A stretch of 64,000 nt of DNA from Octopus sinensis (Eukaryota): NCBI RefSeq assembly GCF_006345805.1, contig NC_043001.1:24366001-24430000 (forward strand), given 5' to 3'. The notes beneath the pieces are model-generated. The model saw only the letters and a program-made list of their open reading frames with translations. It was not told the DNA's origin and did no database searches. Within the stretch, counting starts at the first letter, position 1, and every line of letters starts with the position of its first letter. Positions 8,309-46,000 of the stretch are shown in pieces. The position numbers and the translations under genes are program-made.

Positions 8309-8356
8309 TCCGTCTCCTGAAGTAAAAGATATTCAACCTCCAGATAGTCCTTGCAG
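8309..8356 (+). CDS. Predicted internal exon, 48 nt, phase 2-2: xPSPEVKDIQPPDSPC(R)
   Basis: Acceptor ttttcactgtattcttacag, donor gttagt, length divisible by 3, open frame compatible with the downstream exons. Confidence 0.7.
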
Positions 8357-8399
8357 GTTAGTAAGATTGTGTGTATACTCAAATAAAAGGTTTTGTCTC

Positions 8400-8438
<39 letters not shown>

Positions 8439-9556
8439 TATGCATGCGTGTGTGTGTGTGTGTGTGTGTGAGTAATGCATTTTTTATAAACTAAAAGCTT
8501 TTCCTGTCCATTTAACCACAATCAGTTTAATACTAAAATCATGTCTTACTAAAAATATTTGTTCCTCTACTAAAAAGAATTTTTTTACTAAAACCTTTAA
8601 TTTTATTCAAAACCTTCCTTAATAATCTCATTTATTAAAAAAATACATTACTTTAGGAAATAAAACAAGAGTTAATTTCATTGTATTACAAAGACAGTCC
8701 TGATCAAATTTGAAATTCAGTCTGTTCTTAAGCCTGAAATATACACTAAAAATTATATTTATAGTGTTGATTTATACTTTAACTATAATCAAATTTTCAA
8801 ACATTACAAATCTACACAATATGATTCTAATAATTGAATGTGCATACATATATGCATACAGACCCACCCACAAAATACAAATTCTCTCTCTCTCGCTCTC
8901 TCCAAACACACAAACACACACAAATATTTGAAATAATTACTTTTACAAGAATTGTGCAGTGTCCCTCACTTTGGAATCTGTCTAAGATTATTTGATTATG
9001 TTAATGTGGATAAGGCAATTGTTATTGACTGAAGAGACACAATCATGTTAAAACACTGGCGTCTCAAAGTCTTCCTACATCCCTGAAATGTGTATGTTTT
9101 GTCAGTACACATCAGTACACATTGTCTGAAAGGAAATATTGTTCTCCAAAGGTGAGCTACAACACCGATTAGAATATTCTTATTCATATCCATTGGAATA
9201 TGTTACAAATCAATATCTACAAATTCTTTAAATTTCTTCTCTCTTACATGCTTATGATAACTGGCAGACATCAACATATACCAGCAAATAATTTGTTTTG
9301 CTGAATTCTATAAACAAGTACAGCCATTCATGTGTAGATTTAGAGACCTGAGGTTAGCTTTAACTGTAGAGATACAATCACACTGAAGCACCAGTCATCC
9401 TACATTGCTAGATTGTGTCTGTTGCTAACAGGCATCATCTAAAAGGGGAAATTGTTTTCTTATAAGGTGAAATACAATAATGATTAGTATATTCATAGTC
9501 ATATTTGCTGGGTCATGTTAAAATTGAATATGCACGTTATTGTTTTCATTCTTACT

Positions 9557-10257
9557 CAGGGTTGGCCGCCCTGAGGCCCGTGGGGCACATGCAGCCTGCT
9601 TGATACTTTTTTGAAATGGATTTATTTAAAAAAACGTTTTAAAAATGTTATCAAAAACTAACAGTATCGCCTGGCGTTACTCGGGTTTGTTTCGACCCTT
9701 TAGAATTGGAATTTTTGAAAAGTAAAAATTTTGCATTATGTAGCTTGTTATTCTCTTTAAGTGAACATTTTTCTGGTTGAAATACACCGAAAAATGGCGA
9801 CACAGCAGTCAAAAAATCATTAAAAAATAGGGATTTTCATAGAAAAAAGCACCTTTTTGATGTAAATAATTTTTGGTGTTAGCATTGTCCAATTTGAATT
9901 TTTCTTCTATGGAATGAAGAGCAAGCCTTCTTTTATCATACTTTCAATTTTGGTCAACTTGCGCCACAGGGTCTCGGAGGAGATAGTGTTAGTTGAAGGC
10001 TACCAAACCTGCCATTCACAGACAACTTCAGCTTTATATAGAGAGAGATTAAAGATTTTAATGAAAAGTAAAACAAGGAAGCTACTACTGTTTTTGCAAC
10101 GATAATATTTTATGTTGAATCAATGATCATTCATTCATTATTGTAATAATAGCATGAGAAAGCAAAATGCTTTCAATTCTGTCAGCATACAAGTGGCTCT
10201 CAAATGTCTTTTTGTGATTAAAGTGGCCTGCAATGTAATTCGAGTTGGCCAGGCCTG
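9557..10257. mobile_element. hAT-type MITE interrupted by a Helitron-like element
   Basis: Imperfect TIRs CAGGGTTGGCC...GGCCAGGCCTG; perfect 8-bp TSD TTCTTACT (9549-9556 and 10258-10265). Confidence 0.85.
9658..10048 (-). mobile_element. Non-autonomous Helitron-like element
   Basis: Minus strand starts TCTCTCTATATAAAGCTG and ends with a CCCGAG...CCAGG hairpin plus TTAG (CTAG in the 32290 copy). Three copies in the window. Confidence 0.75.
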
Positions 10258-10636
10258 TTCTTACTGTGTGTGGGTTCATTATAATTTAAGATTAAAAAAC
10301 AATTTATTTTAAAGTTCATGAGAAGACATAAAAAAAAATTTGCTTAATATTAACCAAAGATTTTTAAAAATGCAACGAAGATACAATTTTTAATTTTGAA
10401 GTAAAAAATATTATGTACCATAAAATATTTTGAGTTTTGGACAAACTGCTTCTCAATAAGCATTCTTTTCTTTCTCCCCTCAATGCTTTTTATCAGTCTG
10501 TGTTTCTCTCTTTCTGGATGAAATCAGGTATTATCAGATCTGGAAAGAGAGAGAGAGAGAGAGGGGGCCGAGAGAGAGAGGGATAGAGAGAGAGAGAGAG
10601 GAAAAAGAGAGAGAGACTCGTCTGGACATATAGTGT

Positions 10637-11003
10637 ACCAGCAGTATCGCCCGGTGTTGCTTGGGTTTGTTTCGACCCTTTAGAATTGGAATTTTTGAAA
10701 AGTAAAACTTTAAGTGAACATTTTTCTGGTTGAAATACACCGAAAAATGGCGACACAGCAGTCAAAAAATCATTAAAAAATAGGGATTTTCATAGGAAAA
10801 AAGCACCTTTTTGATGTAAATAATTTTTGGCGTTAACATGGTCCGATTTGAATTTTTTCTTCTATGGAAGGAAGAGCAAGCCTTCTTCTATCATACTCTC
10901 AATTTTGGTCAACTTGTGCCGCAGGGTCTTGGAGGAGATAGTGTTAGTTGAAGGCTACCAAATCTGCCATACACAGGCAACTTCAGCTTTATATATAGAG
11001 AGA
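10637..11003 (-). mobile_element. Non-autonomous Helitron-like element (same family as 9658)
   Basis: Closely matches 9658-10048 apart from a short internal deletion. Confidence 0.75.
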
Positions 11004-11887
11004 TTTATATATAAAGGAATATATAAATGTGGAACAGAAATGCTTCCAAATTTGAAACTCAGAATGACAATGATAGAAGTTTCACCAGGTGTCTGTGTGT
11101 GTGCGTCTGTGTGATTTTTATCTGATGTGTTAATCTATATGATTGAGTATAAGCACGTTTTAATCATTGTTACTAGTTTGTGTGAACATTTCTATAAGTG
11201 TCTTTAAATATACTAATAATTTTAGATGAAGGCGAGAATCTTAGTTCCATATCAAAATAAATGTTTTCTCCATCTTTTTTTACTGCTTGCTTTGATTGAA
11301 TGATTGATTAATTGACTGACTGATTGATTGATTTTTAAATATAATTTATTGATATGAAATGAACTGATAGCTTAGCAGTGTTCTTAATTAATATTCAAAT
11401 TAAAGGTGTCAACCAAGTTCTTGATTTGTGCTCTAGTTCCAGCTGCTCTCCCATATAATGTACATTGCAATTGCTTCCATGTTGATTTCTTCTTAAAGTC
11501 TTACTGTGCTATTTGTTTGTTTTTTTCTTTTTAAATCAGAAAATTTCAATTAATTAAATAATTTCGATCAATGTTACACGGATTTCTGATGGGAAAATAG
11601 ATTATGATCTCCAAGTGAATTTGAAGTGAGGAGATATTGGAACAAACACTTTCCAGTAATAAGTTCTGAGCCCAAAGCTATTGCTGGGATGAATAAACTG
11701 GTTTAAGAAGTTTTGGACAATTTCTATATTAAATATTGTTATAGATATCAAAGAAAACTTCTCTGAAGGATAATTCATTATTAAAATAACAGAAACTTGT
11801 TAAATGAATCACAATTCACTGCTATAGGAAACAATGTGAACATAATAGAAGTTGAGGAACATATTACTTATAGTTTATGAAAGCTCC

Positions 11888-12264
11888 TCTCTTTTACTGT
11901 TTTATTTGTTTCAGTCATTTGACTGTGACCATGCTGGAGCACTGCCTTTAGTCGAGCAAATCAACCCCAGGACTTATTCTTTGTAAGCCTAGTACTTATT
12001 CTATCAGTCTCTTTTGCTGAACCGCTAAGTTACGGAGATGTAAACACACCAGAAACAGTTGTCAAGCGATGTTGGGGTGACAAACACACACACATATACA
12101 TATATACGATGGGCTTCTTTCAGTTTCCATCTACCAAATCCACTTACAAGGCTTTGGTCAGCCCGAGGCTATAGTAGAAGACACTTGCCCTAGGTGCCAC
12201 ACAGTGGAACTGAACTCAGAACCATGTGATCGGTAAGCAAGCTACTTACCACACAGCCACTCTT
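11888..12264 (-). mobile_element. tRNA-derived SINE family A (most abundant; internal CA/TA tract, GTAAAAGA tail)
   Basis: Head GAGTGGCTGTGTGGTAAG, B-box-like GTTCAGTTCC, tail CCAGCATGG.CACAGTCAAATGACTGAAAC; about 11 copies in the window. Confidence 0.9.
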
Positions 12265-13439
12265 GTGTTGTATATTTTACTGAAGATATTCTTTTAAGTA
12301 TCTTTTTAGTTGACAGCAAGTAAGAAAAATTTTTTGTAGATTTTAGAATAGTTTTGGTGCCAATATAGAATTGAACCATAATAGATTGAATTAATAAGGG
12401 AAAAAAGATATTTACTAGGAGGTAATAGAACATAACTCTTTGAAAGAACAACATCAAACTTATTGATTTGACTGACTGTAATTTATTATGAAAATTATTT
12501 TTGGAAGCTTGAATTAACTTATCAATAACACTTCTGATATATTATTTAACAATATTCCTACCTTCATGTATCACATGAGATTTGATCAGTTTTTTTTCCT
12601 TCATGGCTTCTTTAAAATTTAATTCATGTTTTCCTCATAATTTTACTTCCCCTTGTTTGTTTATTCCTTGTAAAGATCGACTAATTATAGTAAAAGAATT
12701 TCAATTTATAAATTGGACTTATTCTGATTCATATATTATTCGCCATTTGGCTATGTTTTTAAAATTGCATGTTTGCATGTATATGAATACAATAATGCAG
12801 AAATTACACAGGAAATGACTACTGAAACTTATTTTAAACAAGAACAATATTTTCCATTAGCAATCCATTAATTATATTACATTTTTGAACTTTGAAGAAA
12901 ATGAACTCAAACTAATTGAATTTGTATATATTTATAATGAAATATTGAATGAACTTAAAGATCATCATCTAATTATTTAAACTAAGCATAACTCACATAC
13001 CTGGCTGAAGCACTTGAGTGCTGGCTTACTGGCTGAAGGGTCGGTAGTTCATATCCTGGCACTGATGCTGTACTGTAGCCATAACTAAATAATTTAACTA
13101 CAAATGTTTCAGTTCATTTGAATTAAATAGATATCATTGAGAGTAATTAAGGAGTATTTTGTGACTTTGGAATGCAATGCTCAAATTTTCCATGAAAATC
13201 ACTTTATTAATTTCAATATGCTCAAAACTGCCACTAGTTCTGATGTATAAAGCTTTTCATTTATATCTAAATTAAAGCCTTCCATATGAATTTTATATTA
13301 AATATACTTTAGAATGACAAATTTAGTTATTTTACAAAATCACTTGAAATTCTTAATAATTTTTAAAATTTACTAAAACATAAATGCAATATATTTATCG
13401 GAAATACAGTCACAAAAGGTTCCTGTGTATTCTCTTTAA

Positions 13440-13659
13440 CCTTTTTGTTACCAACCCGGCTGAAACCAACTCTGGCTTGGAGTACAAATGTCTTGTTTTC
13501 ATAAGTTTTGAATTAAAATCTTCCACTAAACCTTAGTCACAATTTATGTTCCTGACACTAGCTGAATGATAACTAAGTTATTTTACTAAATTCTTTGTTA
13601 TATTTAAAGTAATTGAAATAAATACACAGCATCTCTAAATATATACGGTAATGGAAGGG
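13440..13659. mobile_element. piggyBac-like MITE
   Basis: TTAA on both sides and imperfect TIR CCTTTTTGTTACC...GGTAATGGAAGGG. Related degenerate copies near 13220-13420 and 47743-47957. Confidence 0.75.
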
Positions 13660-16600
13660 TTAATCATTACAAGAAGATTAAATTTTCAATGGTGCAGCAA
13701 TGTACTAATAGGCTGCACTAGTAATAAATATCTGCTTCTCAATATATGTATCATGTCATATATAAAGGCATATAAATTGCTAAATATTACTAAAATTTCA
13801 AAAACATTAGGAAACTAATGTTTTTGAAACTAATCAAATTTCTAAATATTTAATTGCATTTTCAATTTTTTCCTCATTAGTTATAGAGACCACCTCTGGC
13901 CCTTTAGTTTTGAAAGTGAGAAGGTGATCTTACTAGTACTAGTGCCACAAAACAAAGGCATCCAGTTCAATCTGCAAAGTGGCTGTCATTAGGAAATTGT
14001 ATTAGTGAAGCATGTTTTCACTAAGTCTTACTAATACTAATGAAAAAGTTTAATTTGTAAATAATATTTAATTAAAGCTCTAGTGTTTACAAGTCTGTTG
14101 TTTCTCATAATGTTGACTAGTATTCCATAATACTTCACAGTTTAAAATGTATTCAATTAGTAGATAATGTTTTACAATATCTAACAGTTTGAATTTAACC
14201 TTTTCTTAGTTAGAAGTAGATAACAATATAACAATGCTGTGTTTTTTTTAAATGCTATGTATTCTTTGAAAATGCTATCTAAAGTCACAATGGCATTTGG
14301 AGGTGGGGTTGTGAATAATAAATTTGTCTCATCTTGACATACATAAACTCTTGTTATTGTCATTACAAATATTAATAAAATTTTTTCCTCATAAATCAAA
14401 TCAATAACTAGTTTCAGGTAATCTTTATGAAACTGAAATAGAAATCTGATTTTATTATGTTGGTTAAATTTAGAAAAAATTCTAAAGCAATATTGTGCTT
14501 CTTTTATCTCTTTGACAAGGCATTTCTTATAATTCCAGCGTCTCTTCAAGGACAACCATTGAGAGTCCTCAGCGGTGTGTATCACTTTCAAAGTCTTCTC
14601 TAATTTCAAACATCTACTAATATCTAACCTGACATTGAAGTAGTGATTATAATCTCTTAGATGTTTTTCATAGAACCTCTGCTCATCGAGATTTGTCTTT
14701 AGAAATTATGGATCCTTATATCTTAAGCTGATCAAATGTACTGCAGTAATACATTACCATTACACCATGCAGGTTTCCAAATGTCTTCTAGTATTATCAA
14801 TAATGGATTTTTCTAGAGCTTCTAGTAAGAAAATAATGGAGCATTTGAAAACATGTAAAATTATATACAAGAAAAAGAAAAGTATAGAAAATGAAACTGC
14901 TAAAATAAGATGTCTTACTTTTCTTTTTCAAACTTTCAAAAAAAACAAAAAAACTATAAGATATTCTCATTTGTGTAGGAAGGAATGTCTGTGTGTTAAC
15001 TTCGCATAATAGCTAGAATTTTACTATTGAATATCTTCATAAATGGTTTTTATGGATTATTAGTATAACATTTATATGTAAAGTCATAGACTAGACACAT
15101 ATCTGGTAATAAAAATATAGATCAATAGATTAATAAATCAACTACTCAACTATTTATAAATTAAGTTATACGTTCTGCTATGAGAAGGTTATACCAGTTA
15201 GTAATGTAAATAATAGCTAAATAGGATCTGCAACAACTAGCTGAACACAATAGTCTTGTGAGACAGTCACCAAATTGCATAGTAAACCAAGTAATAAAAT
15301 AATTATTGAAATTATCCCCATTGCTCCCCACCCCCTATTATCCTATCTCCCCTCCTCTTTGTCCATATTTATCAAGGTCTAGAAGTACTTGGAATGGTTT
15401 TCTTTTTATGTTGTTTCAGATAGTCTATGGCACAAATATTTTCAACTCAGTATTTACAATGATTTACCTCTGTATATAACAGTTTGTATTTTATTGGTTT
15501 TAGACAAATGAAAATGAAAGTAACTTTGACAACACTTCAACATAGTACAATTATATCATGACCTTTCGAACAGCTAATTAATTATATTCTTGACACGTAT
15601 TCTACATCTTTCCTTTAAGTCTTATATGCTAAGTTTCATTACTCATTCTTTTTCTATTAACTTTCTCTGGGTGATTACTCGCTGATGTATCTTAAAATAC
15701 TTGTTTGTTGAAGATGTTCTCCTTGGTATTATGGTTAGGAATTTGCAATTTCTTAAGTAATTTATTTGACAGATTTAGCTGTAGTGCTAATAGGTCATCA
15801 AACCTTCTAATTGGCTCTTCATTTTCTTCCTTACTTTAAATTTTATCAAAATGTTACAGTACAAATCTCTTTTATTGCAATGAAATGAAGCCAAGTGATA
15901 AAGTAAAGAAATAGAATTTGTAAAAGTCAAATAAATGTTCATTTCAGTATGTTTAGATCAATGTAAAATGTTTCTGTAAATGTTTTTCAGATTGAACTGA
16001 AATTTATATAATCTAGTTAATTCTTATAAACTCAACAATTTCAAGTGACTTTGCTTCAATAATTACTTAACAACATATATTATTAGCATTTATTAGCTGT
16101 ACAAATAAAAATTCAGATTTAATATTCTGCAAAAGCTGTCATAATTTTTCTTATAAATTTTCATATAGAAATAAAAATACCTTTTAACCTCTAGGTAAAC
16201 GAAATAAACTTTTTCAGAATCACTTAGTTTTCCTTATTATTCCATTTATTTTCCTCTCAATAACTAAACATATTTTCTTCTATAAAGCTTTTAAAATACA
16301 TATTAATTCCCATGTTTATAAATATATTCCAGTGCAAAACATTTTGCATGGAAATCTGATAGAGCAATTAAAATAAAAATTTAAAATTCTCTTTAGAACA
16401 TTAACTGTTCTGATGAACTATTAACATAATGGTTTTTGCCATTGAATCAAAGAAACACATAAAAAATATATAATAGTGCATAAATTTTAAATTATTCTAA
16501 GTTTTCTCTTCTTTAAGTATTTTATGATTTCACTTTAATTTAAAAATTAGGTTAATTACAATTAATCTTTCATAAAATTCTTTATCGATTAAATATAGTA

Positions 16601-16661
16601 AGCATTTTTAAGGAATTTATCCTCAACCAGGTTTATAACTCATATAGTCACTGTTTTGCAG

Positions 16662-16727
16662 AACTTATTCCAGCAAGCAATCGCTGGAAAGACGTACAAG
16701 TATCAGCTCTTCTTTTAAAAAATTCAG
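16662..16727 (+). CDS. Predicted internal exon, 66 nt, phase 2-2: (R)TYSSKQSLERRTSISSSFKKF(R)
   Basis: Acceptor ctgttttgcag, donor AG|gtttgt, symmetric length, inside a ~3.7-kb stretch without recognisable TEs. Confidence 0.7.
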
Positions 16728-17453
16728 GTTTGTGATTATCAGTTATTTGTCTACTACATAATGGTATATTAAACCAGCTAATCAACTGACAACATGTGCA
16801 CCAAAATAATATACTAATTTTAAATACGTTGGCGTAATTTCTAACAGGCAATAAACAAAGATTAACAGAAAAAATGCAAAATATTTAAAATTTAATGTTA
16901 TATCAATCAAGGAAAGCTGACAAACTAACAAAAGCTTCAACCAATATAATTAACTTTGCGTAAAAATACATTTGTTCAATTAAACCGTGTTACTTTTTAA
17001 TTCTAAATTACTAATGACTGGTAGTTCAATTAATAAAATTCTCTTACACAACAAATACTGAAATCCATGATATTTAGTGAAGATTATTGTAAATGTCACC
17101 AGACAGAAATATAAGAACTGATCATACTATTTTTAGAAGTTTGTCTGACATCACATGAAGTCTTCTTTTTGCGTTGGTTCTCGGAAACTTTAACTCATAT
17201 AAATTATTGCAGTGTAATAAAAATAGTGTATGAATTTCTTAAGAGCTATCTTTGATTAACATTTTGTTCACCTAATTTTATTCAGTTTATCAATTTTTCT
17301 CAAATTTTCCTTCCTTATCCACACTGATTTTAGTATGTTCACTCAGAACCAACAAAATTTTATGATATTCTACCTATCATTGACATTGAAAACAAATTTT
17401 GAAAATATTATATATAATTATTAGAAGTGAATAAGCCTTTTATAATCATAAAC

Positions 17454-17497
<44 letters not shown>

Positions 17498-17499
<2 letters not shown>

Positions 17500-17620
17500 T
17501 TGAGTTTACGGAAAAAAACAAAAGACGAAGACAGGTGGTGTACAAAACAAACAGATGTATTAGTATAACGCTCAGGAATAGAAAAAGTCTTTTACGTTTC
17601 GAGCCTACGCTCTTCTAACG
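17498..17620 (-). mobile_element. PLE-like terminal fragment next to (TA)n
   Basis: Minus strand AGAAGAGCGTAGGCTCGAAACGTA, a hammerhead-like stem II/GAAAC/GTA motif. Confidence 0.5.
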
Positions 17621-18104
17621 AACCAGATTCTATCAAACCATTTATAGCTGGTTTGATAGAATCTGCATCATGATAGGACTACATCATAATAGGACATGAC
17701 TGCATCATGATAGGACAGAATCTGCATCATTGATAGGACTGCATCATGTTCACATGTCTGTTTTAACATGCTATGGCCAGATGCTCTTTCTCATGCCAAC
17801 CACTTTACAGAGTCTACATGATCTTTTTGTTTTTCCATGCCACCACTCTAAGGAGGTTACCATGCAACTTGCAAGGAGGTTACCATGTAACTTTCAACAG
17901 ACTGCTGCTACAGTAAAGAAAGTTGTGGTTTTATGCTAAAAGATGAGTGGTTGAAATATGAAAGAAGGTACCAATTTCCTGTTATTGAGGAGCTACATGT
18001 CTGTTCACATAATAAAAGAGTCAGTGGATGTAACCAAGGTCGAGCTAGGAGGAGAGATAAAATAGTGAAGAGGAGTTATAGTGGACCCTCAAAGTACGAG
18101 AAGT

Positions 18105-18672
18105 TTAATGTCCGTTTTCCATGCTAGCATGGGGTGGACTGTTCAACCAGGGTCTGGGAAGCCAGGAGGCTGCGCGAGGCTCCAGTCTGATCTGGCAGTG
18201 TTTCTACAGCTGAATGCCCTTCCTAATGCCAATCACTCCGTGAGTGTAGTGGGTGTTTTTTTACATGCCACCGGCACAGGGGCCAGAGGTGGCAGTCAAA
18301 TGGCCATGGTCGGATGGTGCTTTTAACATGCCACCGGCATGGGTATCACAACTACAATTTCCATTTTATTTTTATTTTGATGCTGATGTACTTGACTTAA
18401 TAGGTCTCCTCAAGCACAACGGGTCACCCTACGATCCAAGGTTAGCAAAGCAGGCCATCATGTGAGCCATGAACTCACTTCATTTGTTGGGTCTTCACAG
18501 TCACAGCATATCTCCAGAGGTCTCGGACTTTCGTCATAGCCTCTGTGAATCCCAACGTTCGAAGGTCATGCTTGACCACCTCATCCTACGTCTTCCTGGG
18601 TCTACCTCTACCCCAGATTCCTTCAACAGTTTGGGAGCGGCACTTCTTCACACATCTCTCCTCATCCATCCG
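18105..18672 (-). mobile_element. 5'-truncated RTE-clade LINE: ORF C-terminus plus 3' UTR (source of the family B tail repeat)
   Basis: RMDEERCVKKCRSQTVEGIWGRGRPRKT*DEVVKHDL...DLWRYAV on the minus strand, followed by AGGAAGGGCATTCAGCTGTAGAAAC...CCATGCTAGCATGGAAAACGGACATTAAA. Confidence 0.85.
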
Positions 18673-19542
18673 TAAATATAAGTGAAAAACAAAGGTTGAA
18701 CAGTTGTAGATGATAAACACATGTTGGAGAGAAAGTAGGTGATGACTGACTGAACAGAAAAGGATAGTATAGATTCTTAACAGAGAAGAGGCTGTGGACA
18801 TTATCTTTGTGGTCTTGAGAATATCTTCATAATTTGATTATAAAGAAAACATTTGTAAATTTTTACAATTATAGATCTTTATTTTTAATTTATAAACATA
18901 TTGCAATATTTAGGATTTATTTTCTTAAATAAGCTCACATGATGGATATTCAAATTCAATAATAAACATTGCTTTATGTATTTGAATGAGATGAATTAAA
19001 TCTTTTCATGTTATCAGCTATGATGTATATATGTTAAAAGGGAAGCTAGATGAAATTTGTGTATTCAAAGCGGAAGAATAATTACAATAAATAATTGCCC
19101 CTCATCAGAACTGTTGAATTTCTGACCAAATAAAAGTGGATGAATTTGTGAATTTAATAGTTAAAATCATAATGGCATCACAAATTTGAAACATTATTTT
19201 ACTCAATTTAAAAGATGATAAACCCCTGTGGTGTATAATATATCAACTCCATAAATAGAGTATTTCTATCTTTGTTAATATATGTGTATAACAAATATTT
19301 GTAATTTTCAATAAATTCATTGAAGCATGAAATAACCTTGAATTCAGAAACTTATTCTGTTTCATTACTTCAAACAGTCCGACTAAAACACTTTGCATGA
19401 AAATCACATTTCAACATTAAGTGTTCATTATACAAACACTAAAAAGGTGTGATATTTTCATAATTTTATGACAGCATAAATATTTATTCAGTTTGGTGTG
19501 CTAACTATTTATTCACAGACGACTAATTCAAGTTAACACATA

Positions 19543-19943
19543 CTCTTTTAATCGTTTCAGTCATTTGACTGTGGCCATACTGGAGCACCGCCTTATGGTC
19601 GAGCAAATCGACCCCAGGACTTATTCTTTGGAAGCCTAGTACTTATTCTATCAGCCTTTTTTGCCAAACTGCTAAGTTACAGGGACGTAAACACACCACA
19701 GTTGGTTGTCAAGCCAGTTGGTTGTCAAGCGATGTTGGTGGGACAAACACAGATACCCAACATATACACACACATACATATATACGACGGGCTTCTTTCA
19801 GTTTCTGTCTACCAAATCCACTCACAAGGCTTTGGTCAGCCCGAGGCTATAGTAGAAGACATTTGCCCAAAGTGCCACACTGTAGGAATGAACCTGGAAC
19901 CATGTGGTTGGTAAGCAAGCTACTTACCACACAGCCACTCCTG
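19543..19943 (-). mobile_element. SINE family A
   Basis: Full-length match to family A with a small internal duplication (CAGTTGGTTGTCAAGC x2). Confidence 0.9.
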
Positions 19944-20358
19944 TACCAATGAAAATAACTGAATCTTAACTTTCACTTGGTTTAAAACCGCCACATGGTA
20001 TTTCGGGTGACTTTAGCAGAGCCTACTCTGTTGCAAGTCTCTGGTTTGCAATACCTTCTTCCCCACTCCCACCAGTCTTCGAGGCCCAAGACTGTAAAAG
20101 GTTATGAGCACTGTTTTCCCTCCTGACTAAAATATATATAAAAAATAAATACTTGTTTCAATAGTTGAAATGTTAAAAAAGTATCCTACCACAGCTTTAT
20201 GTCCTCCTGATATATGGAGATACGCAATGCCTTAAGAGTAGTGAACTACAGATGAAAAAGTACATATCTGGATTAAAAAAGTAAGTACAAAGATTTAAGT
20301 GGAGATTTAACCAAATAGAAATACAATATGATCATTTACTGAAAATTTATCTTTTCAG

Positions 20359-20394
20359 TTCATATTATTCCAGGGTCAATTTGAGTTTAGACAA
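20359..20394 (+). CDS. Possible cassette exon, 36 nt, phase 2-2: SYYSRVNLSLD(K)
   Basis: Acceptor atttatcttttcag, donor gtgaga, symmetric and open; could be chance. Confidence 0.25.
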
Positions 20395-20787
20395 GTGAGA
20401 GGAGACATAAAACTGAAATGTTTAAAAAAAGTAAACAGATATTTAGAAATTAATTCAATATGAGAGTTTCAGTATTTTGAGACATTACTCATTGCATATG
20501 CATAAATTTGTTGGTCTATCTACCCAACATCTCACCAGATGAAAATGAAAATGACGTTGATGGGAAATGGAAAAGAAACCAATAAATCTTAAATTAATCT
20601 CTAATAACATCTCTAATAAGAAAAAAAAAAAGAAAAACAAAACTTATTTCAATTATTTGTCAGATGTTTAGAATATTTAGAATATTTATGGTATTTGTAG
20701 GTCTTGGATCAAAGTCTTGGATTGTTAAATATTAGGAATGTTTTTATTGTCATATGTAAGCTTTTATTTTTTTATTTGTTGATTCAG

Positions 20788-20829
20788 AATGGCAAATGTG
20801 AGACAGTTGATTAAGATGTCTACAATTTG
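20788..20829 (+). CDS. Possible cassette exon, 42 nt, phase 2-2: MANVRQLIKMSTI
   Basis: Acceptor ttttatttgttgattcag, donor gtaatt. Its terminal TG plus the first A of exon 21643 would form TGA, so it is either a poison exon or not real. Confidence 0.2.
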
Positions 20830-21009
20830 GTAATTTTTTTAATTCTTGGAGTGAAAAGTTTGGTTAATTTTAGTAAAGAATACAGGTGTTACATGAAATT
20901 AAGGATAATGCCTTAAACAGAGACTGTCTGTTGAGCTTTATTTGAAGTTTTCTGTGTGATAAAAGAAAGAAGCTTAAAAGAAAATGCATCTTTTGTGAGA
21001 TAGACTTAA

Positions 21010-21200
21010 ACCTTTCAAATTTTGGCACCAGGCCAGTAGTTTCAGAAGGAAGGGGTTAGTTGATTATATTGGTTCAAGTACTTGATTGGTACCTATTTCA
21101 GCAATCTCCAAATGAGGAAAGGAAAAGTTGACCCCAGAAGGATTTGAACTCGATAAAAAACTTGAATAAAATGGTGTTAAGCATTTTGTTCAATGTGCTA
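21010..21200 (-). mobile_element. Degenerate SINE family E (Meta-domain-like)
   Basis: Reverse complement has GAGTTCAAATCC...GTCAACTTTTCCTTTCCTC...GTACC and the tail GGCC..GTGCCAAAATTTGAAA. Confidence 0.55.
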
Positions 21201-21642
21201 AAATATGGTGATTGTAGGAAAAGAGAATAGAAGACTCTTATAATTAATATCTATGAACTGTGAAAAAAAAAATAATTGAGAAAATTGCTGTGCTGTTTAG
21301 ATATATATTAATTTGATTACAATTCTGAAGAATAATTAAAGAAAGGAAAAGTGTGTTGGTTGACAAATTATTTAAGATGTAAGGTGCAAATGAATTTTTG
21401 TGCAGAGCTTCACAATTATAGATGCAATAGTTTTGGAAAATTTCCATGAAATCCACTTTTTGCCATTATTGCAATTCATGATAAATAAGAATAAAAGGTG
21501 TAACATATCAAATATTATTATTGTGGTTGCTTAGCAATTCATGGTAGTTAATTTGGAAAGCTGTACATGGGTGAACGAGCGTGACCAGTTTGCTTCATCT
21601 GTTATGTATGAAAATCTGAATTGTTTGCTAATATTCTTACAG

Positions 21643-21705
21643 AAGCTTCTCACGAGAAGTATCAACTGATGCTGAAAGTGAGAGTTCATCACACCGCAAA
21701 GTGAG
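21643..21705 (+). CDS. Predicted internal exon, 63 nt, phase 2-2: (R)SFSREVSTDAESESSSHRKV(R)
   Basis: Acceptor tgtttgctaatattcttacag with branch-point-like CTAAT, consensus donor AG|gtgagt, symmetric open frame. Confidence 0.8.
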
Positions 21706-22679
21706 GTGAGTGACATTTGTCACATCATTTTCATTTCTTTGTTGGTTTGTGTGTGAAACCTTTGACCACCCAATTAACCATAATTAACATACCCCACTTC
21801 AGTTGTACATGTTTCTGTCAATCTCATGTACAAGACCTAAGAGCCTTCAACACTAAAAATATATTCAGTTGACTAACCTATAGTTGACTAACCTAATTTT
21901 TATTTGTCCTTACTGTTTATGCTTGCATCCTTTGCTTTCATTTACATTATCATCAGTTTTTAAATGCATTTTATATTTAACCTCACCCAACTGTCATCTG
22001 TTCTAAATCTGAATGCAACTTGTATTTAGATTTGATTATAATATAAGTATGTAACTGTTAACTAATGTCTAAAATCTGTGAGATAATATAACTGACTTAT
22101 TTCATAATTGAAATCCATAAAGAAGGACATATTTAGTTTTGTTATTGACAATGATAAGATTTAAACATCAATAACTTATTTTCAGAAGTCATCATTCTTC
22201 TCTTGTGTTGAATGTTTTAATATAAGGACAATATAATTTAAATTATTAAATCATATAGTAATTAGTCTCACCAGCTATACTTCTGTTATTCATTTAGTTG
22301 GCCACAAGGGTGTTACAAAGAAAGGAAGTTGCAGGCTGGACACGGACATAATGAGATGGAATGATTAACAATATGATAATAATGAGGGCAACAACAATGC
22401 CCGATGATTGCTGTTTACCCGAGCACATTGTTCTTTTATAAAACATTTTGAGGCAACAAACCTCTTACATGATAACACATTAAGGAGGCAATACACCTCT
22501 TACATTAACGACATACAAAGCCATTTTGCAGCAATAAACCTCTACCAGCTGTACTTCTAGATTACTAAACATAGATGATCCTTCCATGAGCCATCTAATC
22601 TCTTGTCTACACTTATTTATAAGGCTAGTATCACAGTTCTAATCTTATGTCTAATCTTATGAGTAGATAGATATTTGTG

Positions 22680-23015
22680 AAGGCGCATGGCTCAATGGTT
22701 AGAGCGTCGAGCTTACGATCGTGAGGTTGTGAGCTCGTATCCCAGACCGGGCTGTGTGTTGTGTTCTTGAGCAAGACACTTTATTTCATGTTGCTCCAGT
22801 TCACTCAGCTGTAGAAATGAGTTGCGATATCACAGGTGCCAAGCTGTATCGGCCTTTACTTTCACCTTGGATAACACTGGTGGTGTGGAGAGGGAAGGCC
22901 AGTATGCATGGGCGACTACTGGTCTTCCATAAACAACCTTGCCTAGACTTGCACATAGGAGGATAACTTTCTAGGTGCAATCCCATGGTCAGTGTTGTGA
23001 CCGAAGCAGGGTCTC
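22680..23015 (+). mobile_element. tRNA-derived SINE family D (central motif resembles CORE)
   Basis: GGCGCATGGCTCAATGGTTAGAGC head and TTGAGCAAGACACTTTATTTC...CAGTTCACTCAGCTG; a second copy lies at 23987. Confidence 0.85.
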
Positions 23016-23773
23016 AGATAGATGTTTATATCAATTTTCCTTATGTTACTCATTCTGAGACTATATGTCAAAAACATTGTAAGCATTGTAATGCAGTTTT
23101 AAGATGGCTCAAGTGTTAAACGAAGGCTTTATTATTACTGACGTTGTTATTTAGGTACAATTTCTGAAATAACTTTTGTTAATCTCTTGTAGGGTTTTCC
23201 TTTGACTTCATTTAAGATGGTATTATTATCTGCTCAAGTATGATAAAAATATTTTGTTTAGTTGAGAGACGTCAACGATCTGTCAACTAAACATTTCAAG
23301 CTACCTTGTTAGAAGCATGCTCAAATGAATAACATCAAATAAACACTAACAAACACAAATACGCATGCACTACTAGAGATGTACATAAGTGAATTTGCTC
23401 AACTCTGTGGCTGTCTACATGCATCTGCTTAATTTCATTATGATAAGCATGTGTGAATACATATGTGTGTGTGAGCACTCATGTGTGTGAGGTTTCTATT
23501 GCAAATTGTATTTTGTTTTCATGCCATTAACTTATTCAGGAGCTTTTACCTTGTCAGATATTATCTATCTATTTACTTACTCGTTTATTGCATTCAGCCA
23601 TTAGACACTGGTCAAGCTGGAGTCACACCTTCAAGAGTTTAATCAATCATGTTGGATCCTATTAATCAAATTTGACATTAAGAGACACAACATTAAGTTA
23701 TATTGGTAAACATGAACAAGGCCATAGTAAAACACACATATACATACATACATACATACATATACATACATAC

Positions 23774-23806
<33 letters not shown>

Positions 23807-23986
23807 ATATATATATATAATATATATATATATATAAAATGGAGGTGGAAATAGCAAAGAAAGTAAGTCTAAGGCATTTCAGTTCGAGACGGGGGCCTAC
23901 TTGCTAGATGAACTGATTACTAGACTTCACTCAATATTTTTCTAGCCATTGTTCATTGTATGTATACATACATATCTGTTTCAGGG

Positions 23987-24317
23987 AAGGCACATGGCTC
24001 AGTGGTTAGAGCATCGAGCTTTTGATCATGAGTTTGTGAGTTCAATTCCCGGACCAAGCTGCGTGTTGTGTTCATGAGCAAGACACTTTATTTCATGTTG
24101 CTCCAGTTAATTCAGCTGCAGGAATGAGTTGTGACATCACTGATGCCAAGCTGTAATGGCCTTTGCCTTTCCCAAAGATAACACTGGTGGCCTGGAGAGG
24201 GGAGTCTGGTATGCATGGGTGACTGCTGGCCTTCTACAAACAACCTTGCCCAGACTTGTGCCTTGGAGGGTAACTTTCTAGGTGCAATCCCATGGTTATT
24301 CATGACCGAAGGGGTCT
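23987..24317 (+). mobile_element. tRNA-derived SINE family D
   Basis: Colinear match to 22680-23015. Confidence 0.85.
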
Positions 24318-26733: not shown

Positions 26734-26771
<38 letters not shown>

Positions 26772-27610: not shown

Positions 27611-27783
27611 AACTTTCTACAAACTTTCTCACAAAGTTTCATTGATAGTAAAGGTTCATAGTTAATTCTCATTCTACTTTTCATATGTAATATTCTAAAT
27701 ACTTCAGATTATAATCTCCTCCATTAATCATGGACCAAATACTTTGTAAATAGTAGCTATAGTTTCAGTTGATGTGTTCACAG

Positions 27784-27846
27784 GTCAAATTCAGCAAAGC
27801 GGCTGGATTTTATATCTCAAGAAATGCAATTACAAAGAAGACTGAG
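27784..27846 (+). CDS. Predicted internal exon, 63 nt, phase 2-2: (R)SNSAKRLDFISQEMQLQRRL(S/R)
   Basis: Acceptor gatgtgttcacag, donor AG|gttagt, symmetric open frame continuing from exon 21643. Confidence 0.72.
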
Positions 27847-28770
27847 GTTAGTTTTTAGTTTCATCTCTTCTCTTATGAATCCTGCTATTTCATAACTAAC
27901 CCATCGACTTTTAACACTTACTATGATATGGTTTTGGAATTGAAACTTGCAAGGGTATTTAAATTTTGATTTTGAATCCTAATGCTTATAATGACTAGAT
28001 TTCCCATATTAACTTGTGTTACTAACAAAGCATGTTTTCAGTAATAATTCCTGTTTATTTTATCGAAGCAACTTTATTTGTAGTAAAATACTGATTCTGG
28101 ATTACAGTTAGAACCTATGTATATAATCAACTGGCATGTGTTGATTTTAAGTGATATGGTGAACTTATTTCTCTTGCTTTTTGAGAATAATCACGACAGT
28201 GAAGCAATGAAGAACTTAACTCTAGCCTACTACAGTTATTGTTGCATTTTCATTTCTTCTGGGTGAAAACAAATCCCAGTTGCACAATTAAGTATGACAT
28301 CCTCATCATCATTTAATGTTTGTTTTCCAAGCTGGCATGAGTGAGATGGTCTGACAGGAACCAAAGTTTGTCAAACCAGAAGGCTGCAACAAGTTCCAAT
28401 GTCTGCTTTGGTATGATTTTTATGGTTGAATGCCTTTCCAAATTCTAACCTTTTACAGTATGTACTGGATGCTTTTTATGTGGCTGCAACAGCTTACAAT
28501 TAACTAAATTTGCAAAAACTTATCTAAAACGTATTAAAGTTGCTCTCCTATAGAGAAACAAAACTAACATAATTATAAGTGTAATACTTAAATATTAAAA
28601 TGCTTTGTTGTTTTAAACTTTAGTGAGGAATTCCTAAAAGGGACACTCTAGCATATTTTAGATAACTAATAAAAAATATCTCATTGTTATGCTTAGAAAA
28701 TTATATATAAAATATTTTTTTTTAATATAGTAACTACTTGTAATTTAACAATATCCTAAGCTATGATACA

Positions 28771-37488: not shown

Positions 37489-37964
37489 ACGTGGTATGAG
37501 AATACTACAGAAGGCGTCACCGAAAATGAGAATTGCAAAATCCTGTGGGATGCAATGATCCAGTGCAATCACCCAACCAGACATTGTTGTGGTGAATAAA
37601 AAAGAAAGAACATGCATATTAATTGACATAGTATGCCCCGGTGACAACAGGATCAATAGGAAAGAAGTAAAAATAAACAACTATGATGATTTGAAGCAGG
37701 AAATAGAAAAGTTGTGGTCAATGAGAAGAGTAGATGTGATACCAACAGTAAATGGTATCAGCACCCAACTACCAGCATGGCTGAAAAAGATTGGTGCAAG
37801 TGTGAAGGCAGAACACCTACAAAAATCAGCATTGCTTGGAACTGCAAGAATTCTTCACATGGTTCTTGAAGCATGACCAGTGTCACCTTAGTCTGCTAGC
37901 TGTGGAAAACTGATACTTTCCATCATAGCCAGCAAAATAAGCTGTGAGTTTTCACATAATAATA

Positions 37965-39153: not shown

Positions 39154-39190
39154 TGTTGTTGATGATGACAACGATGATGATGTTGATGAC

Positions 39191-39222
<32 letters not shown>

Positions 39223-39490
39223 CGATGACAATGATGATGATGATGATGACGATGACGACGATGTTGATGATGATGATGACGATGATGATGTTGATGATGA
39301 TGACGATGATGACAATGATGTTGATGATGATGATGACGATGATGATGATAATGACAATGACAATGATGATGACGATGATGATGACGATGATGATGAGGAT
39401 GATGATGATGATGATGACGACGACGATAATGATGTTGATGATGACGATGACGATGATGATGTTGATGATGGTGATGTTGATGATGATGAT
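39154..39490. repeat. Imperfect (GAT)n trinucleotide microsatellite
   Basis: Directly visible; source of the poly-H/S/I/M pseudo-ORFs. Confidence 0.97.
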
Positions 39491-40162: not shown

Positions 40163-40182
40163 CTCTTCTCAGTGTCAAGTAG
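40163..40182 (+). CDS. Predicted microexon with two donors: 16 nt (SSSQCQ, ends phase 0) or 20 nt (SSSQCQV, ends phase 1)
   Basis: Strong acceptor tcttgttttaatatttttttag; donors CAA|gtaggt (after 40178) and TAG|gttgtg (after 40182). Both join exon 27784 to open frames of exon 45945. Confidence 0.5.
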
Positions 40183-40866: not shown

Positions 40867-40932
<66 letters not shown>

Positions 40933-42072: not shown

Positions 42073-42481
42073 GGATCTTTTCGGTTTGAACGGCAGTTTT
42101 TTCTAGCGGTTACATATGAAATTGTCACCCATAATTATGACCCTAGTATCGATCTATTGCATTTCAATCTGTTTTAGGGTAAGGGGTGGGGAGAAGGGTA
42201 TCTTTTTTTCTTCAGAAATGTAAATTAACCCAATCTGTTTCTTAAACGAGGGACACATTCATACGGCACAGAATGTTTTCATCTCAATAGACGTCATTGA
42301 TTGGTTGAAATTGCAGAAATTTAAGAAAAAAAAACAAATATCTTACAAACTATAGAATTTTATCAAATAAGCCAAGAGAAAAATACGTTTTATAAACACA
42401 TTCTACCAGTATACGAAGTTTAAAGGTGTTTAGTTACGTGGGAATTATATTAAAAAACTGCCGTTCTAATCGAAAAGATCC
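42073..42481. mobile_element. MITE with ~29-bp TIRs and ~8-bp TSD (GG...CC termini; superfamily uncertain, possibly Merlin-like)
   Basis: GGATCTTTTCGGTTTGAACGGCAGTTTTT ... AAAAACTGCCGTTCTAATCGAAAAGATCC; flanks CAAAATTT/CAAAATTC. Confidence 0.8.
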
Positions 42482-45400
42482 CAAAATTCTTTATCTGATC
42501 TCAAGCTGATAAGTAAATAAGACGTTTTGTGGGAATTTAGAGGTGACCTTGTGTTTAGTTCTTTCAATTTTAATACATTAAAACATACTAATTGCATTGG
42601 TTTCTTACGTAAATCCAAGTCCACAAAGAACAAACAATAGAAGAGATTATTATGGCATTTATACCTTTCTCGAATGTATTAGTAGTTTAAGTGAAGGGAA
42701 GTGGCTTCAATTGACAAAACCTAATTACATTATTTTGTTCCCTGGGAATTCACTTCCTACCTGTATTCATCAAAATACTCAATGCTATCAATAACAATAT
42801 TTTTACTGTCTTTCACACTTTAACATACATTAATATTTTTCTTTCAGATTAATCTTTCTTTATTCTCACTAAATGTTACTTTACATTTAAATACTGCCTC
42901 GAATGTGCTATACATTTGAATAGTGTACCTTATAATTAAGTAGAAATCTATAATACATCACTTCAAGGTATCCATGAGAAACGAAATTTCCTTTGTTATA
43001 AACAAGTGTAGTAATAGAGACTATTCATGAGAAAGTTTTTATTACTCTTTTTCTTAGAGCACTTTTCTTTACATAGAATCTAATTTATAATGACTCTGTT
43101 AGCAATTTATTGATCCCAGCTAGATGTATTTTAATTACCATCTTAATCCACTATTCAAATAGATATCTGTTATGATTGGTAATAATTAGTGGAATCCATT
43201 TCGCTAGTCTTGCTTTTAAACATTCTCAAATGTAGCTAACTTATTTTATTCGTTTCATTATGGTAACTGTTTTAGCAAAGCTAATTGCATTAGTGCTTTA
43301 GTGTGAATAATAGCTGCAACATTAACTCAGTGATACAGTTTGTAATCATAAATTTTAAGTTGTTACATGTAGGCTATTCACTTCTGGGAGTAAGCATTGA
43401 CATTGCACACTGTACATTCAATATGGAAATGAATAGCCTTTTGAAGGCACAGAGAATTCATCATTTTGTTTAGATTGTTATCTTTTTCATTCTTAAAATA
43501 ATACCAAGCACATACTGCGAAATTTGTTACCAAAGTTGACCATATCTAGTCACTTCTTATACTATATCGGGAACTTCATTAAACATGATTTTGTACTATT
43601 TGTAGTCATTTTAAGATTTGGCAGTCGATAATGGTTACACTATATTTTGCAGATATGATTTAATAAGACCAAAACATGTTTGGACTTGTCACTGTGTTAT
43701 TCAAGATCAAACCTATTATTCACTACATTTAAACTTTAATTAATTTAAACTTTGTGGTTGTCTCACCCTGCTTTTCTTGACCAGAATTAATCATTAAGGT
43801 AATGATTTCACCCACTTCTTACAAAAAGCATTAATTCAATTAATCAAATTTCTTAGCTCACTACATTAAAAATATTAGCACCAACTTACTATTAGTGTAG
43901 GAAGCAGTTTGTCAATGTGGAGAACATTGAATAGAGCTATCCTAAAAAACATGTCAGCCATTTTTGAGGTCAGTAAATTATTTTCTTTGTCTCGATGTCT
44001 AGAACCCAAAATAGTTGGGAGGAAGAACTAATGAGGCTTGCAATAAGACTGAAAATCCAGCTGAAAAAAGTTGTACCTTGATGCTATTGATACAACCCAA
44101 ACCCACCCCAAATCTCCTAAACTCACACCAGAGAGTATAGCAACACACCATCATAAGCACGCTCAATCAATAACTTTAGTGTGGCTCCTGTATTGTTTTC
44201 CGAGGTGTTATGGCTCATGTTCTAATATTCCTCATTACCACCATAACGATAATGAGCTATTATCTAACTATCTTGTCTTACCTTTTAAAGATACATACCT
44301 TAGTATATTAAAACACAAACAATACCTTTGGTGGGTCTCTACGTTTTTCTAGGTATTATGGCTAAAATATGCAAAGTGATACACCTTTTTGTAGTACCAG
44401 TATATTCTACAAAATGAGAAATACACAATCATTGTTTCATCTTTCAGATGCATACATAAATAAATAATTTTTCATTGGTTGAATTAGAGGAGGTCTTCAC
44501 AATCATTTTAAGACCAAAACCAGTTTCCCAACTTCATTCCTTGCCAAAATATCGCATTCTGAAAGTCACAAAACTTTGACTGTGTTTTCTTAGGTTTTTA
44601 AGTTGTGGCACTTACAACGGTCTGTTACTAAATGCCTCATTTGTAATTGTTAAAAAATCATGTAAAAAATTTTTGAATGTCTTCTAGTTGACATGTCCTT
44701 TGGAAAAATAAAACAAAAGAAAGAAAAAGCCTGATTCGATTTATGCTTCAAACAACATCAATGAAACATTAGCAGCATTGTATAATTTATCATTGTAGGG
44801 AAAAATCATACTTTAGCACTATGCCAACAGTACCTGCCATGTGTGATAGTGTAGCAACTTTTTTGTAGCTACTCATAAAAAAACAACTGCTTTTATTTTC
44901 AAGACAGAATCACTACATCATAGGATTGATTATATCATATTTAGCAACTTCTGCCAGCAGAAACATCACAGATCACAAAGTTCTTTCATTTAAAGAACAT
45001 TTGAATGACTAAATATTGGGAATGGATTTTTCAGCAACAGATGACAGCAGTGATAGTAATCATTATAATGATTTTTCCTTATGTTTAATAATGATGTTCA
45101 TATTGTATATGTTAGTTTACCTTTAATTATTTGATCAATTATTTTCATATCATTTGCATGTTGGCCTTAATTAAAGAACAAAAGTTGTTTGATTTTCTAC
45201 TTCACTGAGAATATCTAATAAGAATGAAACACATCCCTTGATTCTATTGGTTTTAAGAACAAGATCCACTCCCATCAGTACCATCTTCATTTTAAGCATC
45301 TCAAGAAGTTTCTGTTTACATGCAGTATCAGTGATCTCAGCAAAGTTTTACAGCTCACTATAATAGATGTGCAAGAGCCTTTAGTGTCTGATTTAAGCTT

Positions 45401-45944
45401 CAAACCCTGCATGTTCATTTGGTCAACAAGAACAGAGATAAAAAAGACCTTTCTTGCATACAGCTTTTATTTTAATATTGAAGCATTTTAAAGAAATGGC
45501 ATAGATTTTATATAAAATTATTGATGTAGTTATAAAGATTTCAAATGTTTTCTCTATCCTTTGAATTTTTACATTTCAGTAGAGAAGAGGAAAGGGAATA
45601 AATTAGAATATTGACCAACAATAGTTGTTAGTGAAGAAAATAATGTCATGAAATAATTAACAGAACATAAAAAAGACTTTCATCTTAATTACCTTTTATT
45701 GCAACCAATAAATAATCTTAAGTAAAACAAATCACTTCCTACAAAAGTGACACTCTCCAGCTCTGTCTAAAAAAACATTTGATAATAATGATACTAAATT
45801 ATTCAGTAAAATAATTTGGGTATTTAACCCACAATATCGTGCTTATGTGTCTGCCAGCAAATGTATTTCTTGTTCAACGTTGATGGAGTTCATCAGTTTC
45901 AGTATTGTTAATAATCTGAGTTCTTTTTGTTGTTTGGTGACTAG

Positions 45945-46000
45945 ACCTTAGAAAGTCTAAAGTTGAAAGACGAAGAATAGTGAAAACAAGCGCCTTATAA
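45945..46000 (+). CDS. Predicted terminal coding exon: TLESLKLKDEE* (stop ends 45980) or (D)LRKSKVERRRIVKTSAL* (stop ends 46000)
   Basis: Acceptor ttctttttgttgtttggtgactag, two open frames, then a TE-poor AT-rich tract with AATAAA at 46071, 46865, ~47297 and 47522. Confidence 0.55.

What the first reader, a model, noticed from the sequence alone, without database searches (positions are those of the whole stretch)
8309..46000. Hidden chain of small frame-symmetric phase-2 exons across 38 kb encoding a Ser/Arg-rich tail
Seen: four exon candidates (48, 66, 63, 63 nt) are all multiples of 3, all open in phase 2 and all end in AG before a GT donor. They join to xPSPEVKDIQPPDSPCRTYSSKQSLERRTSISSSFKKFRSFSREVSTDAESESSSHRKVRSNSAKRLDFISQEMQLQRRL and continue through microexon 40163 to a stop in exon 45945. 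Inference: any subset can be skipped without frameshift, giving a combinatorial, probably disordered tail. The ORF track shows none of this.
Basis: partly seen in the sequence, partly recalled or inferred. Interest (0 to 1): 0.75.

Follow-up and report, generated by a model that had tools for sequence, protein, structure and literature searches.

The report
Optional exons inside octopus STAC-like gene
These are real, already machine-annotated small exons of an octopus gene related to the calcium-channel adaptor STAC; they add an optional serine/arginine-rich loop in the middle of the protein rather than a tail, were seen only in octopus and cuttlefish-type relatives among the sequences compared, and are likely switched on by a Quaking-type splicing protein.

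Summary
A spliced contig joins 21705 to 27784 and 27846 to exon 61589-61700, skipping the proposed pieces 40163 and 45945; the gene ends about 600 kb further on. The host is an F-BAR + helical hairpin + tandem-SH3 protein related to STAC/Dstac but without a C1 domain. The six cassettes (108 residues) sit at the tip of the predicted hairpin; five are predicted disordered, the last helical. Public Octopus bimaculoides models already show 8 skip patterns. The insert occurs in 11 of 76 homologous proteins, all octopus or cuttlefish-type. New here: ACTAA, the Quaking motif, is the top 5-mer behind the cassettes (15 seen, about 2 expected; 6 of 6 cassettes, 2 of 17 other exons), which suggests coordinated Quaking activation; a held-out exon gave only weak support. 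Tissue and function are untested. Verdict: ordinary alternative splicing with a lineage-specific, testable twist.

The parts
8309..8356 (+). Cassette B, 48 nt, phase 2-2 (16 codons, Pro/Ser-rich). Cassette A (45 nt) lies before the window at G000:C5:24361118-24361162, and the constitutive exon that ends hairpin helix 1 at G000:C5:24350913-24351064.
   Evidence: absent from 5 of 9 O. bimaculoides models; run X3 has depth 24 at 8342
8490..8591 (+). Five ACTAA sites 134-231 nt behind cassette B (partly a short repeat, so not five independent sites); candidate Quaking sites
14539..14574 (+).
   Evidence: in 10 of 10 insert-bearing octopus models; X3 bin depth fits 38 letters at depth 24
16662..16727 (+). 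Cassette D, 66 nt, phase 2-2; the best conserved cassette in cuttlefish-type proteins
   Evidence: 64% identity over 25 residues to P0001; absent from 3 of 9 O. bimaculoides models
16813..17014 (+). Three ACTAA sites behind cassette D
21643..21705 (+). Cassette E, 63 nt, phase 2-2
   Evidence: its end is the loose end in front of cassette F in the spliced contig; in 10 of 10 insert-bearing octopus models
21852..21891 (+). Three ACTAA sites behind cassette E (two inside a 15-nt tandem duplication)
27784..27846 (+). Cassette F, 63 nt, phase 2-2; predicted to extend hairpin helix 2 by about 21 residues
   Evidence: (spliced contig covers exactly this exon); absent from 1 of 9 O. bimaculoides models
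27895..28025 (+). Two ACTAAC sites behind cassette F
61589..61700 (+). Constitutive exon G, 112 nt, phase 2-0; hairpin helix 2, conserved from molluscs to mosquitoes; the true continuation of the chain
40163..40182 (+).
45945..46000 (+).

Best explanation
Six small frame-preserving exons insert up to 108 Ser/Arg-rich residues into the middle of an octopus F-BAR and tandem-SH3 protein related to STAC, at the tip of a predicted helical hairpin behind the F-BAR domain; their inclusion is likely promoted by a Quaking-type protein binding ACUAA sites behind each exon, and the loop would likely tune membrane or partner binding of this presumed calcium-channel adaptor. Shown: the exons, their frames, the E-F-G junctions in one spliced contig, annotated skip patterns, the gene's domain order, and the absence of the insert in the non-coleoid homologues compared. 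Predicted: hairpin-tip position, disorder of A-E, helix of F. Inferred from motif position and known Quaking rules: activation of inclusion, probably tissue-biased (muscle somewhat more likely than nervous tissue). Inferred only by analogy: that the hairpin acts like the SRGAP2/FES Fx extension, and that a basic loop with five RxxS/T and five S/T-P sites changes lipid or partner binding under kinase control. Odds by step: internal optional insert about 0.95; Quaking-type control about 0.6; functional tuning of membrane or channel coupling about 0.3.
For: Junctions and continuation. Isoform patterns: (A, B, D, F variable; C, E constant; 8 patterns in 9 O. bimaculoides models). Skip-all forms: three unnamed proteins encoded on short continuous contigs (P0005, P0026, P0028) in a cluster with a cuttlefish-named member, against P0006 with a 208-residue insert at the same site. 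Host: best solved relatives are STAC3, STAC1 and STAC2 tandem SH3 (E 3e-21); Foldseek ranks STAC SH3 pairs first, then SRGAP2 F-BARx and FES; colinear with F-BAR + C1 + SH3 protein P0068. Structure: helix 303-343, turn 344-346, helix 347-381 with the junction at R340 in the skip form; with the insert, residues 324-345 and 347-407 have pLDDT under 50 and F joins helix 405-469. Lineage: 11 of 76 proteins covering both helices have an insert, all octopus or cuttlefish-type. Motif: ACTAA ranks first of 1024 5-mers in the 250 nt behind the six exons (15 against 1.8 expected; ACTAAY 8 against 0.8; 1 upstream; reverse complement 3 against 1.8; all six windows positive in 0.017% of random donor-like draws); 2 of 17 other internal exons of the gene have one (Fisher p 3e-4). 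A Quaking-type STAR dimer exon is in the genome. Downstream ACUAAY marks QKI-activated exons in mouse heart (PMC10202634, passages).
Against: Only one contig from one run shows the junctions, and its tissue is unknown. Skip patterns come from automated models whose read support I could not see; P0017 may be this gene's own annotation and is not independent. No octopus transcript that skips all six was seen (P0044 and P0004 are predictions). The motif was first spotted among a handful that I counted and then ranked; sites behind B and E are partly repeats (p falls to 2e-4 when collapsed). ACTAA is common here: of 13 clusters of three or more in the host span only 3 follow a cassette, and four lie 0.5-1.6 kb before exon C. 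The held-out alternative exon near the SH3 end has only 1 site in 250 nt and 2 in 400 nt. Motif conservation in other cephalopods could not be tested. Loop genes including Quaking B are described as upregulated in neural tissues of a squid (PMC13652810, passages), which weakens the muscle guess. The protein lacks the C1 domain. The hairpin's packing was not reproduced (rmsd over 50 A to F-BARx in a monomer model with pTM 0.43).
Confidence: 0.6

Rival explanations
1. Tolerated exon gain: the phase-2 intron at a surface hairpin tip accepts any frame-preserving exon, so inserts accumulated with little function, and ACTAA sites are incidental or only keep weak exons included.
For: Insert length and sequence differ strongly between octopus (108 residues) and cuttlefish-type P0006 (208 residues, His-rich); the site is a predicted helix end beside a turn; ACTAA clusters also occur away from exons; all junction codons are harmless by construction.
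Against: Cassettes D, E, F and part of B are recognisably kept between octopus and cuttlefish-type proteins, the two Octopus species differ at only a few residues of 108, and the motif excess is strand- and side-specific.
Confidence: 0.2
2. A free combinatorial code: the six exons are chosen independently, cell by cell (for example in neurons), giving up to 64 loop variants.
For: 64 of 64 subsets are open; four exons vary in annotation; neural tissue is the most splice-regulated in bilaterians (bioRxiv 10.64898/2026.09.05.749416, passages).
Against: C and E are in 10 of 10 insert-bearing models, 8 patterns are annotated, and cuttlefish-type transcripts seen are all-in or all-out; one shared motif behind all six suggests joint control; lengths and acceptors do not fit the neural microexon programme.
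Confidence: 0.12
3. One reading: a minor isoform runs from cassette F through 40163 to a stop at 45945 and yields an F-BAR-only protein with a Ser/Arg tail (a possible dominant negative, as SRGAP2C is).
For: The path is open to a stop; an AATAAA lies at 46071; contigs drop rare variants, so a minor form is not excluded.
Against: Poor donor, 20-nt length, chance-level frequency of such pairs; absent from all held proteins; the spliced contig goes F to G.
Confidence: 0.04

Closest known systems
Drosophila Dstac and other invertebrate Stac proteins (CaV1 adaptor)
   Same: N-terminal BAR-type domain, helical hairpin, following amphipathic motif and tandem SH3 in the same order; invertebrate Stacs have a putative BAR domain of unknown function and Dstac is alternatively spliced (PMC7573238, passages).
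   Different: No C1 domain in this gene or in 49 lophotrochozoan rows; no insert at the hairpin in the C1-bearing homologues; channel binding untested.
Vertebrate STAC1-3
   Same: Tandem SH3 is the best sequence and fold match; a DPVY-centred stretch resembles the U-domain core whose KVD, PVY and ETL triplets suppress CaV1 inactivation (PMC6156082, passages).
   Different: Vertebrate STACs have C1 and no BAR; here BAR and no C1.
SRGAP2 F-BARx and FES F-BAR-FX
   Same: F-BAR followed by a linker and a two-helix extension; in SRGAP2 the Fx packs on the partner protomer and raises liposome binding by about 25% (PMC5435084, section 6 and passages).
   Different: 14-15% identity, no RhoGAP or kinase; packing not reproduced in the monomer model; the optional loop at the hairpin tip is the new element here.
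Quaking/How/ASD-2-regulated alternative exons
   Same: ACUAA(Y) sites within about 250 nt behind the exon, the position that marks QKI activation (PMC10202634); the worm homologue ASD-2 binds CUAAC repeats in muscle-specific splicing (PMC3469465, abstract).
   Different: A run of six lineage-specific exons spread over 33 kb, each with its own sites; dependence on Quaking not shown.

Membership tests
STAC family (C1 + tandem SH3) | Tandem SH3 domains of STAC type | tested here: met
STAC family (C1 + tandem SH3) | C1 (cysteine-rich) domain | tested here: not met
   No PF00130 in P0017 or P0045; 0 of 49 lophotrochozoan rows and no hit in the fetched introns where it should lie (profile from only 2 sequences); none of 150 scored genome matches (of 8657 candidates) falls in the gene. 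Hence 'STAC-related', not filed as a STAC member.
STAC family (C1 + tandem SH3) | U-domain core that modulates CaV1 | tested here: inconclusive
   DPVY stretch conserved in molluscs and nemerteans, similar to the core named in PMC6156082; function not testable
STAC family (C1 + tandem SH3) | Binds and regulates an L-type calcium channel | not testable with these tools
   needs electrophysiology or binding assays
Invertebrate Stac (Dstac type) | N-terminal BAR domain colinear with Dstac-type proteins | tested here: met
   FCH E 1e-4; 30% identity over 317 residues to P0068; no tree was built
Extended F-BAR (F-BARx / FX) | F-BAR fold followed by a two-helix coiled extension | tested here: met
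   (target TM about 0.7 to CIP4, FBP17, PSTPIP1; 390-442 aligned columns with SRGAP2 F-BARx and FES)
Extended F-BAR (F-BARx / FX) | Extension packs against the partner protomer and aids membrane binding | not tested
   monomer models only; no dimer job was run
Quaking-activated cassette exons | ACUAA(Y) enriched in the proximal downstream intron, not upstream | tested here: met
   weakened and by the held-out exon
Quaking-activated cassette exons | Quaking-type STAR gene in the genome | tested here: met
   PF16544 E 3.8e-13 at G000:C19:45913846; only the dimerisation exon was examined
Quaking-activated cassette exons | Inclusion falls when Quaking is lost | not testable with these tools
   needs knock-down or a minigene
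Neural microexons (eMIC/SRRM4 programme; criteria recalled) | Length up to about 27 nt and UGC close to the 3' splice site | tested here: not met
   36-66 nt; TGC at -30..-5 in 1 of 6
   a rare form cannot be excluded by contigs

The most novel reading that the evidence does not exclude
Coleoid cephalopods built a Quaking-controlled splice module of six or more new exons into the F-BAR extension of their STAC-like calcium-channel adaptor, giving one cell type (fast muscle, or a neural or glial class) a basic, phosphorylatable loop plus a helix extension that switches how the adaptor shapes membrane and places L-type channels; it would be a natural handle on the unknown role of the invertebrate Stac BAR domain, in a lineage whose Stac has also lost C1.
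Probability: 0.25. Interest if true: 0.6.

Novelty: new variant of a known kind. Interest (0 to 1): 0.35.

Why it matters
The exons themselves are already in automated annotation under an 'uncharacterized protein'. What is added is their identity and context: a STAC-related gene, an insert at the predicted tip of its F-BAR extension that was seen only in coleoid-type sequences, and a shared Quaking-type motif. The function of the BAR domain of invertebrate Stac proteins is stated to be unknown (PMC7573238), and natural with/without-insert isoforms make it testable. It would also be a concrete case of lineage-specific exons joining an old splicing programme in cephalopods. No paper on this locus turned up in six full-text searches; subscription journals are not covered, and the closed supplements of bioRxiv 10.64898/2026.09.05.749416, which includes O. 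bimaculoides tissue-specific exons, may list these exons.

Tried and rejected
Pfam on single exons: nothing useful. Run search: no RNA holder listed; the runs are RNA by guess only. Laying four runs on 8250-27950 was swamped by repeats and listed no splice joint; only depth arithmetic could be used, and the bin of exon D was not diagnostic. Runs X6, X11 and X2 laid nothing on exon F: no evidence either way. Search with the insert alone among proteins under 465 residues: 0 of 47 candidates scored. Origin of the cassettes by tandem duplication: pairs A/C and B/E have the most similar acceptors (13 of 20 nt), but one constitutive pair ties and local scores do not exceed background, so not supported. 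Weaker splice sites at cassettes: not significant (three boundary positions in that comparison were off by a few bases). Rbfox sites: no excess. Octopus counterparts of the His-rich cuttlefish-type cassettes or of the short GRGRH segment: only low-complexity hits. Other phase-2 symmetric candidates (7119, 20374, 30636, 35766, 40765) lie in repeats or have no protein support. Internal promoter at 45945-46200: no CpG peak, dropped. Rfam: 0 matches. Earlier scan findings: none. No dimer prediction was run, since a pass would follow from likeness to solved F-BAR dimers.
Full report
Observation. The window is 34% G+C, repeat-rich intronic DNA (36% is repeated within the DNA I held). With rough splice matrices of my own, three of them exceed anything on the opposite strand (top cut: 3 phase-2 candidates on +, 0 on -), while at a loose cut the counts are 6 and 3. 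The ending AG|GT is the ordinary donor consensus.

The gene. The window lies at G000:C5:24366001-24430000. Exons found in the 100 kb upstream led to an octopus protein family. Public model P0017 (847 residues) tiles letter for letter on the held DNA from 76 kb before the window to C5:25037856, about 750 kb in all; it may be this gene's own annotation, so I do not count it as independent. It shows six phase 2-2 exons between a constitutive exon that ends in phase 2 (15 kb before the window) and exon 61589: A 45 nt (before the window), B 48, C 36 (14539-14574, missed), D 66, E 63, F 63. All 64 subsets stay open and junction codons are always Ser or Arg. Nine O. bimaculoides models carry 8 different patterns; A, B, D and F vary, C and E are always present.

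RNA. No run was on record as RNA. On 27625-28290 one of four runs laid one contig: 1536 letters, depth 24, matching 27782-27847 without a difference; its loose ends are the last 30 letters of exon E and the first 30 of exon 61589. This shows splicing E-F-G and skipping of 40163 and 45945 in that run. In the repeat-swamped first lay, the same run has depth 24 at 8342 and bin depths that equal 38 and 64 letters at depth 24 in the bins of C and E, so the contig probably also holds B and C; this is arithmetic, not a listed joint. The other three runs laid nothing.

Host protein. Pfam gives a weak FCH and SH3. The best solved relatives are the tandem SH3 domains of STAC3, STAC1 and STAC2. Anopheles proteins, one named as a Stac3 by its source, match the N-terminal part and carry C1; P0068 has F-BAR, C1 and SH3 and is colinear with P0017. 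PMC7573238 (passages) states that invertebrate Stacs have a putative BAR domain of unknown function and that Dstac is needed for normal CaV1 levels in muscle. The octopus gene and 49 of 49 lophotrochozoan rows lack C1, so it fails the C1 test: it is STAC-related and may work like Dstac, but I do not file it as a STAC member. A DPVY stretch resembles the U-domain core (PMC6156082, passages).

Where the insert sits. AlphaFold2 of the insert-free form P0026 (24 rows, mean pLDDT 64, pTM 0.43) gives an F-BAR, a linker, then helix 303-343, a three-residue turn and helix 347-381 at pLDDT 83-94; the exon junction is R340. Foldseek places STAC SH3 pairs first, then SRGAP2 F-BARx and FES, then plain F-BARs; the large rmsd shows that the hairpin's packing is not modelled. 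With the insert (P0017), residues 324-345 and 347-407 fall under pLDDT 50, and cassette F becomes the start of a longer second helix (405-469; about 70 over F). In SRGAP2 the equivalent extension packs on the other protomer and adds about 25% liposome binding (PMC5435084, section 6 and passages). The insert is 27% Ser, net +4, with five RxxS/T and five S/T-P sites.

Distribution. Of 76 held proteins that cover both helices, 65 have one residue between them and 11 have 55-208. Ten of the 11 are named Octopus; the eleventh (P0006, unnamed) closely matches cuttlefish-named P0001. The 65 include five coleoid-type skip forms (P0004, P0005, P0026, P0028, P0044); the others are named bivalves, gastropods, a chiton, nemerteans and mosquitoes, plus unnamed representatives. 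Rows are not species: many are isoforms. No row was named Nautilus. D, E, F and part of B are recognisable in the cuttlefish-type insert, which adds His-rich segments not found in this window.

Regulation. While counting a few motifs I saw ACTAA behind every cassette. In an unbiased ranking it is first of 1024 5-mers in the 250 nt behind the six donors: 15 against 1.8 expected (2, 5, 1, 2, 3, 2), 1 upstream, reverse complement not enriched, 0 behind 8 constitutive exons and 2 behind 9 more; presence 6 of 6 against 2 of 17, p 3e-4; without B p 4e-5; with repeats collapsed p 2e-4. ACUAAY downstream marks QKI-activated exons in mouse heart (PMC10202634, passages), worm ASD-2 uses CUAAC in muscle (PMC3469465, abstract), and the genome has a Quaking-type exon. 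Against: 10 of 13 ACTAA clusters in the span are not behind a cassette (3 of 13 against about 0.4 expected, p near 0.01 by hand), and the held-out alternative exon at C5:24877535 has only 1 site in 250 nt. Squid Quaking B lies among genes upregulated in neural tissue (PMC13652810, passages), so the tissue is open.

Verdict. Clusters of symmetric cassettes in disordered loops are ordinary. The coleoid-limited insert in a hairpin that is otherwise gap-free from molluscs to mosquitoes, the shared Quaking-type motif and the lost C1 are the parts worth following. Searches found no paper on this locus; I saw listings only for papers not cited above, and did not read Hsu et al. 2018, which is cited through PMC7573238. 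Interest 0.35.

Noticed in passing
whole gene; proteins P0002-P0063: The lophotrochozoan STAC-like proteins held (49 of 49 rows) lack the C1 domain that mosquito-type homologues carry, but keep a DPVY stretch like the vertebrate U-domain core.
   Followed up: partly
G000:C5:24877535-24877585 and P0005/P0006/P0026/P0028: Two further optional segments track the insert in cuttlefish-type proteins: the 51-nt KQKEK exon is present with the insert and absent without it, and a short GRGRH segment shows the reverse (1 against 3 sequences); this hints at two coordinated isoform programmes.
   Followed up: partly
window 12911-14036: Four ACTAA clusters 0.5-1.6 kb before exon C, with a weak non-symmetric exon candidate at 13881-13915/13923; unexplained.
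   Followed up: partly
G000:C5 between 24427700 and 24792916: The intron after exon 61589-61700 is about 365 kb long; the gene spans about 750 kb.
   Followed up: no
window 1-1314: 62-bp minisatellite, 21 copies at 95% match, continuing before the window.
   Followed up: no
window 39160-39490: 330-bp degenerate (TGA)n tract giving long poly-Asp, poly-Met and poly-His frames; a source of false low-complexity hits.
   Followed up: partly
window 49382-50338: A 221-bp unit (repeat fragment plus AT tract) duplicated in tandem at 99%, with a third copy of the same frame near 50338; recent duplication or assembly artefact.
   Followed up: no
window 37559-37873 (+): 105-residue frame that looks, from recall, like the C-terminal endonuclease part of a non-LTR retrotransposon; Pfam gave no convincing family.
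   Followed up: partly
G000:C8845, C7755, C9497, C10215: Four further STAR-dimer matches on small contigs besides the C19 gene; may be extra STAR genes, retrocopies or foreign DNA.
   Followed up: no
G000:C5:24361088-24361162: Cassette A has a second in-frame acceptor 30 nt upstream (75-nt form) with a similar weak score.
   Followed up: no
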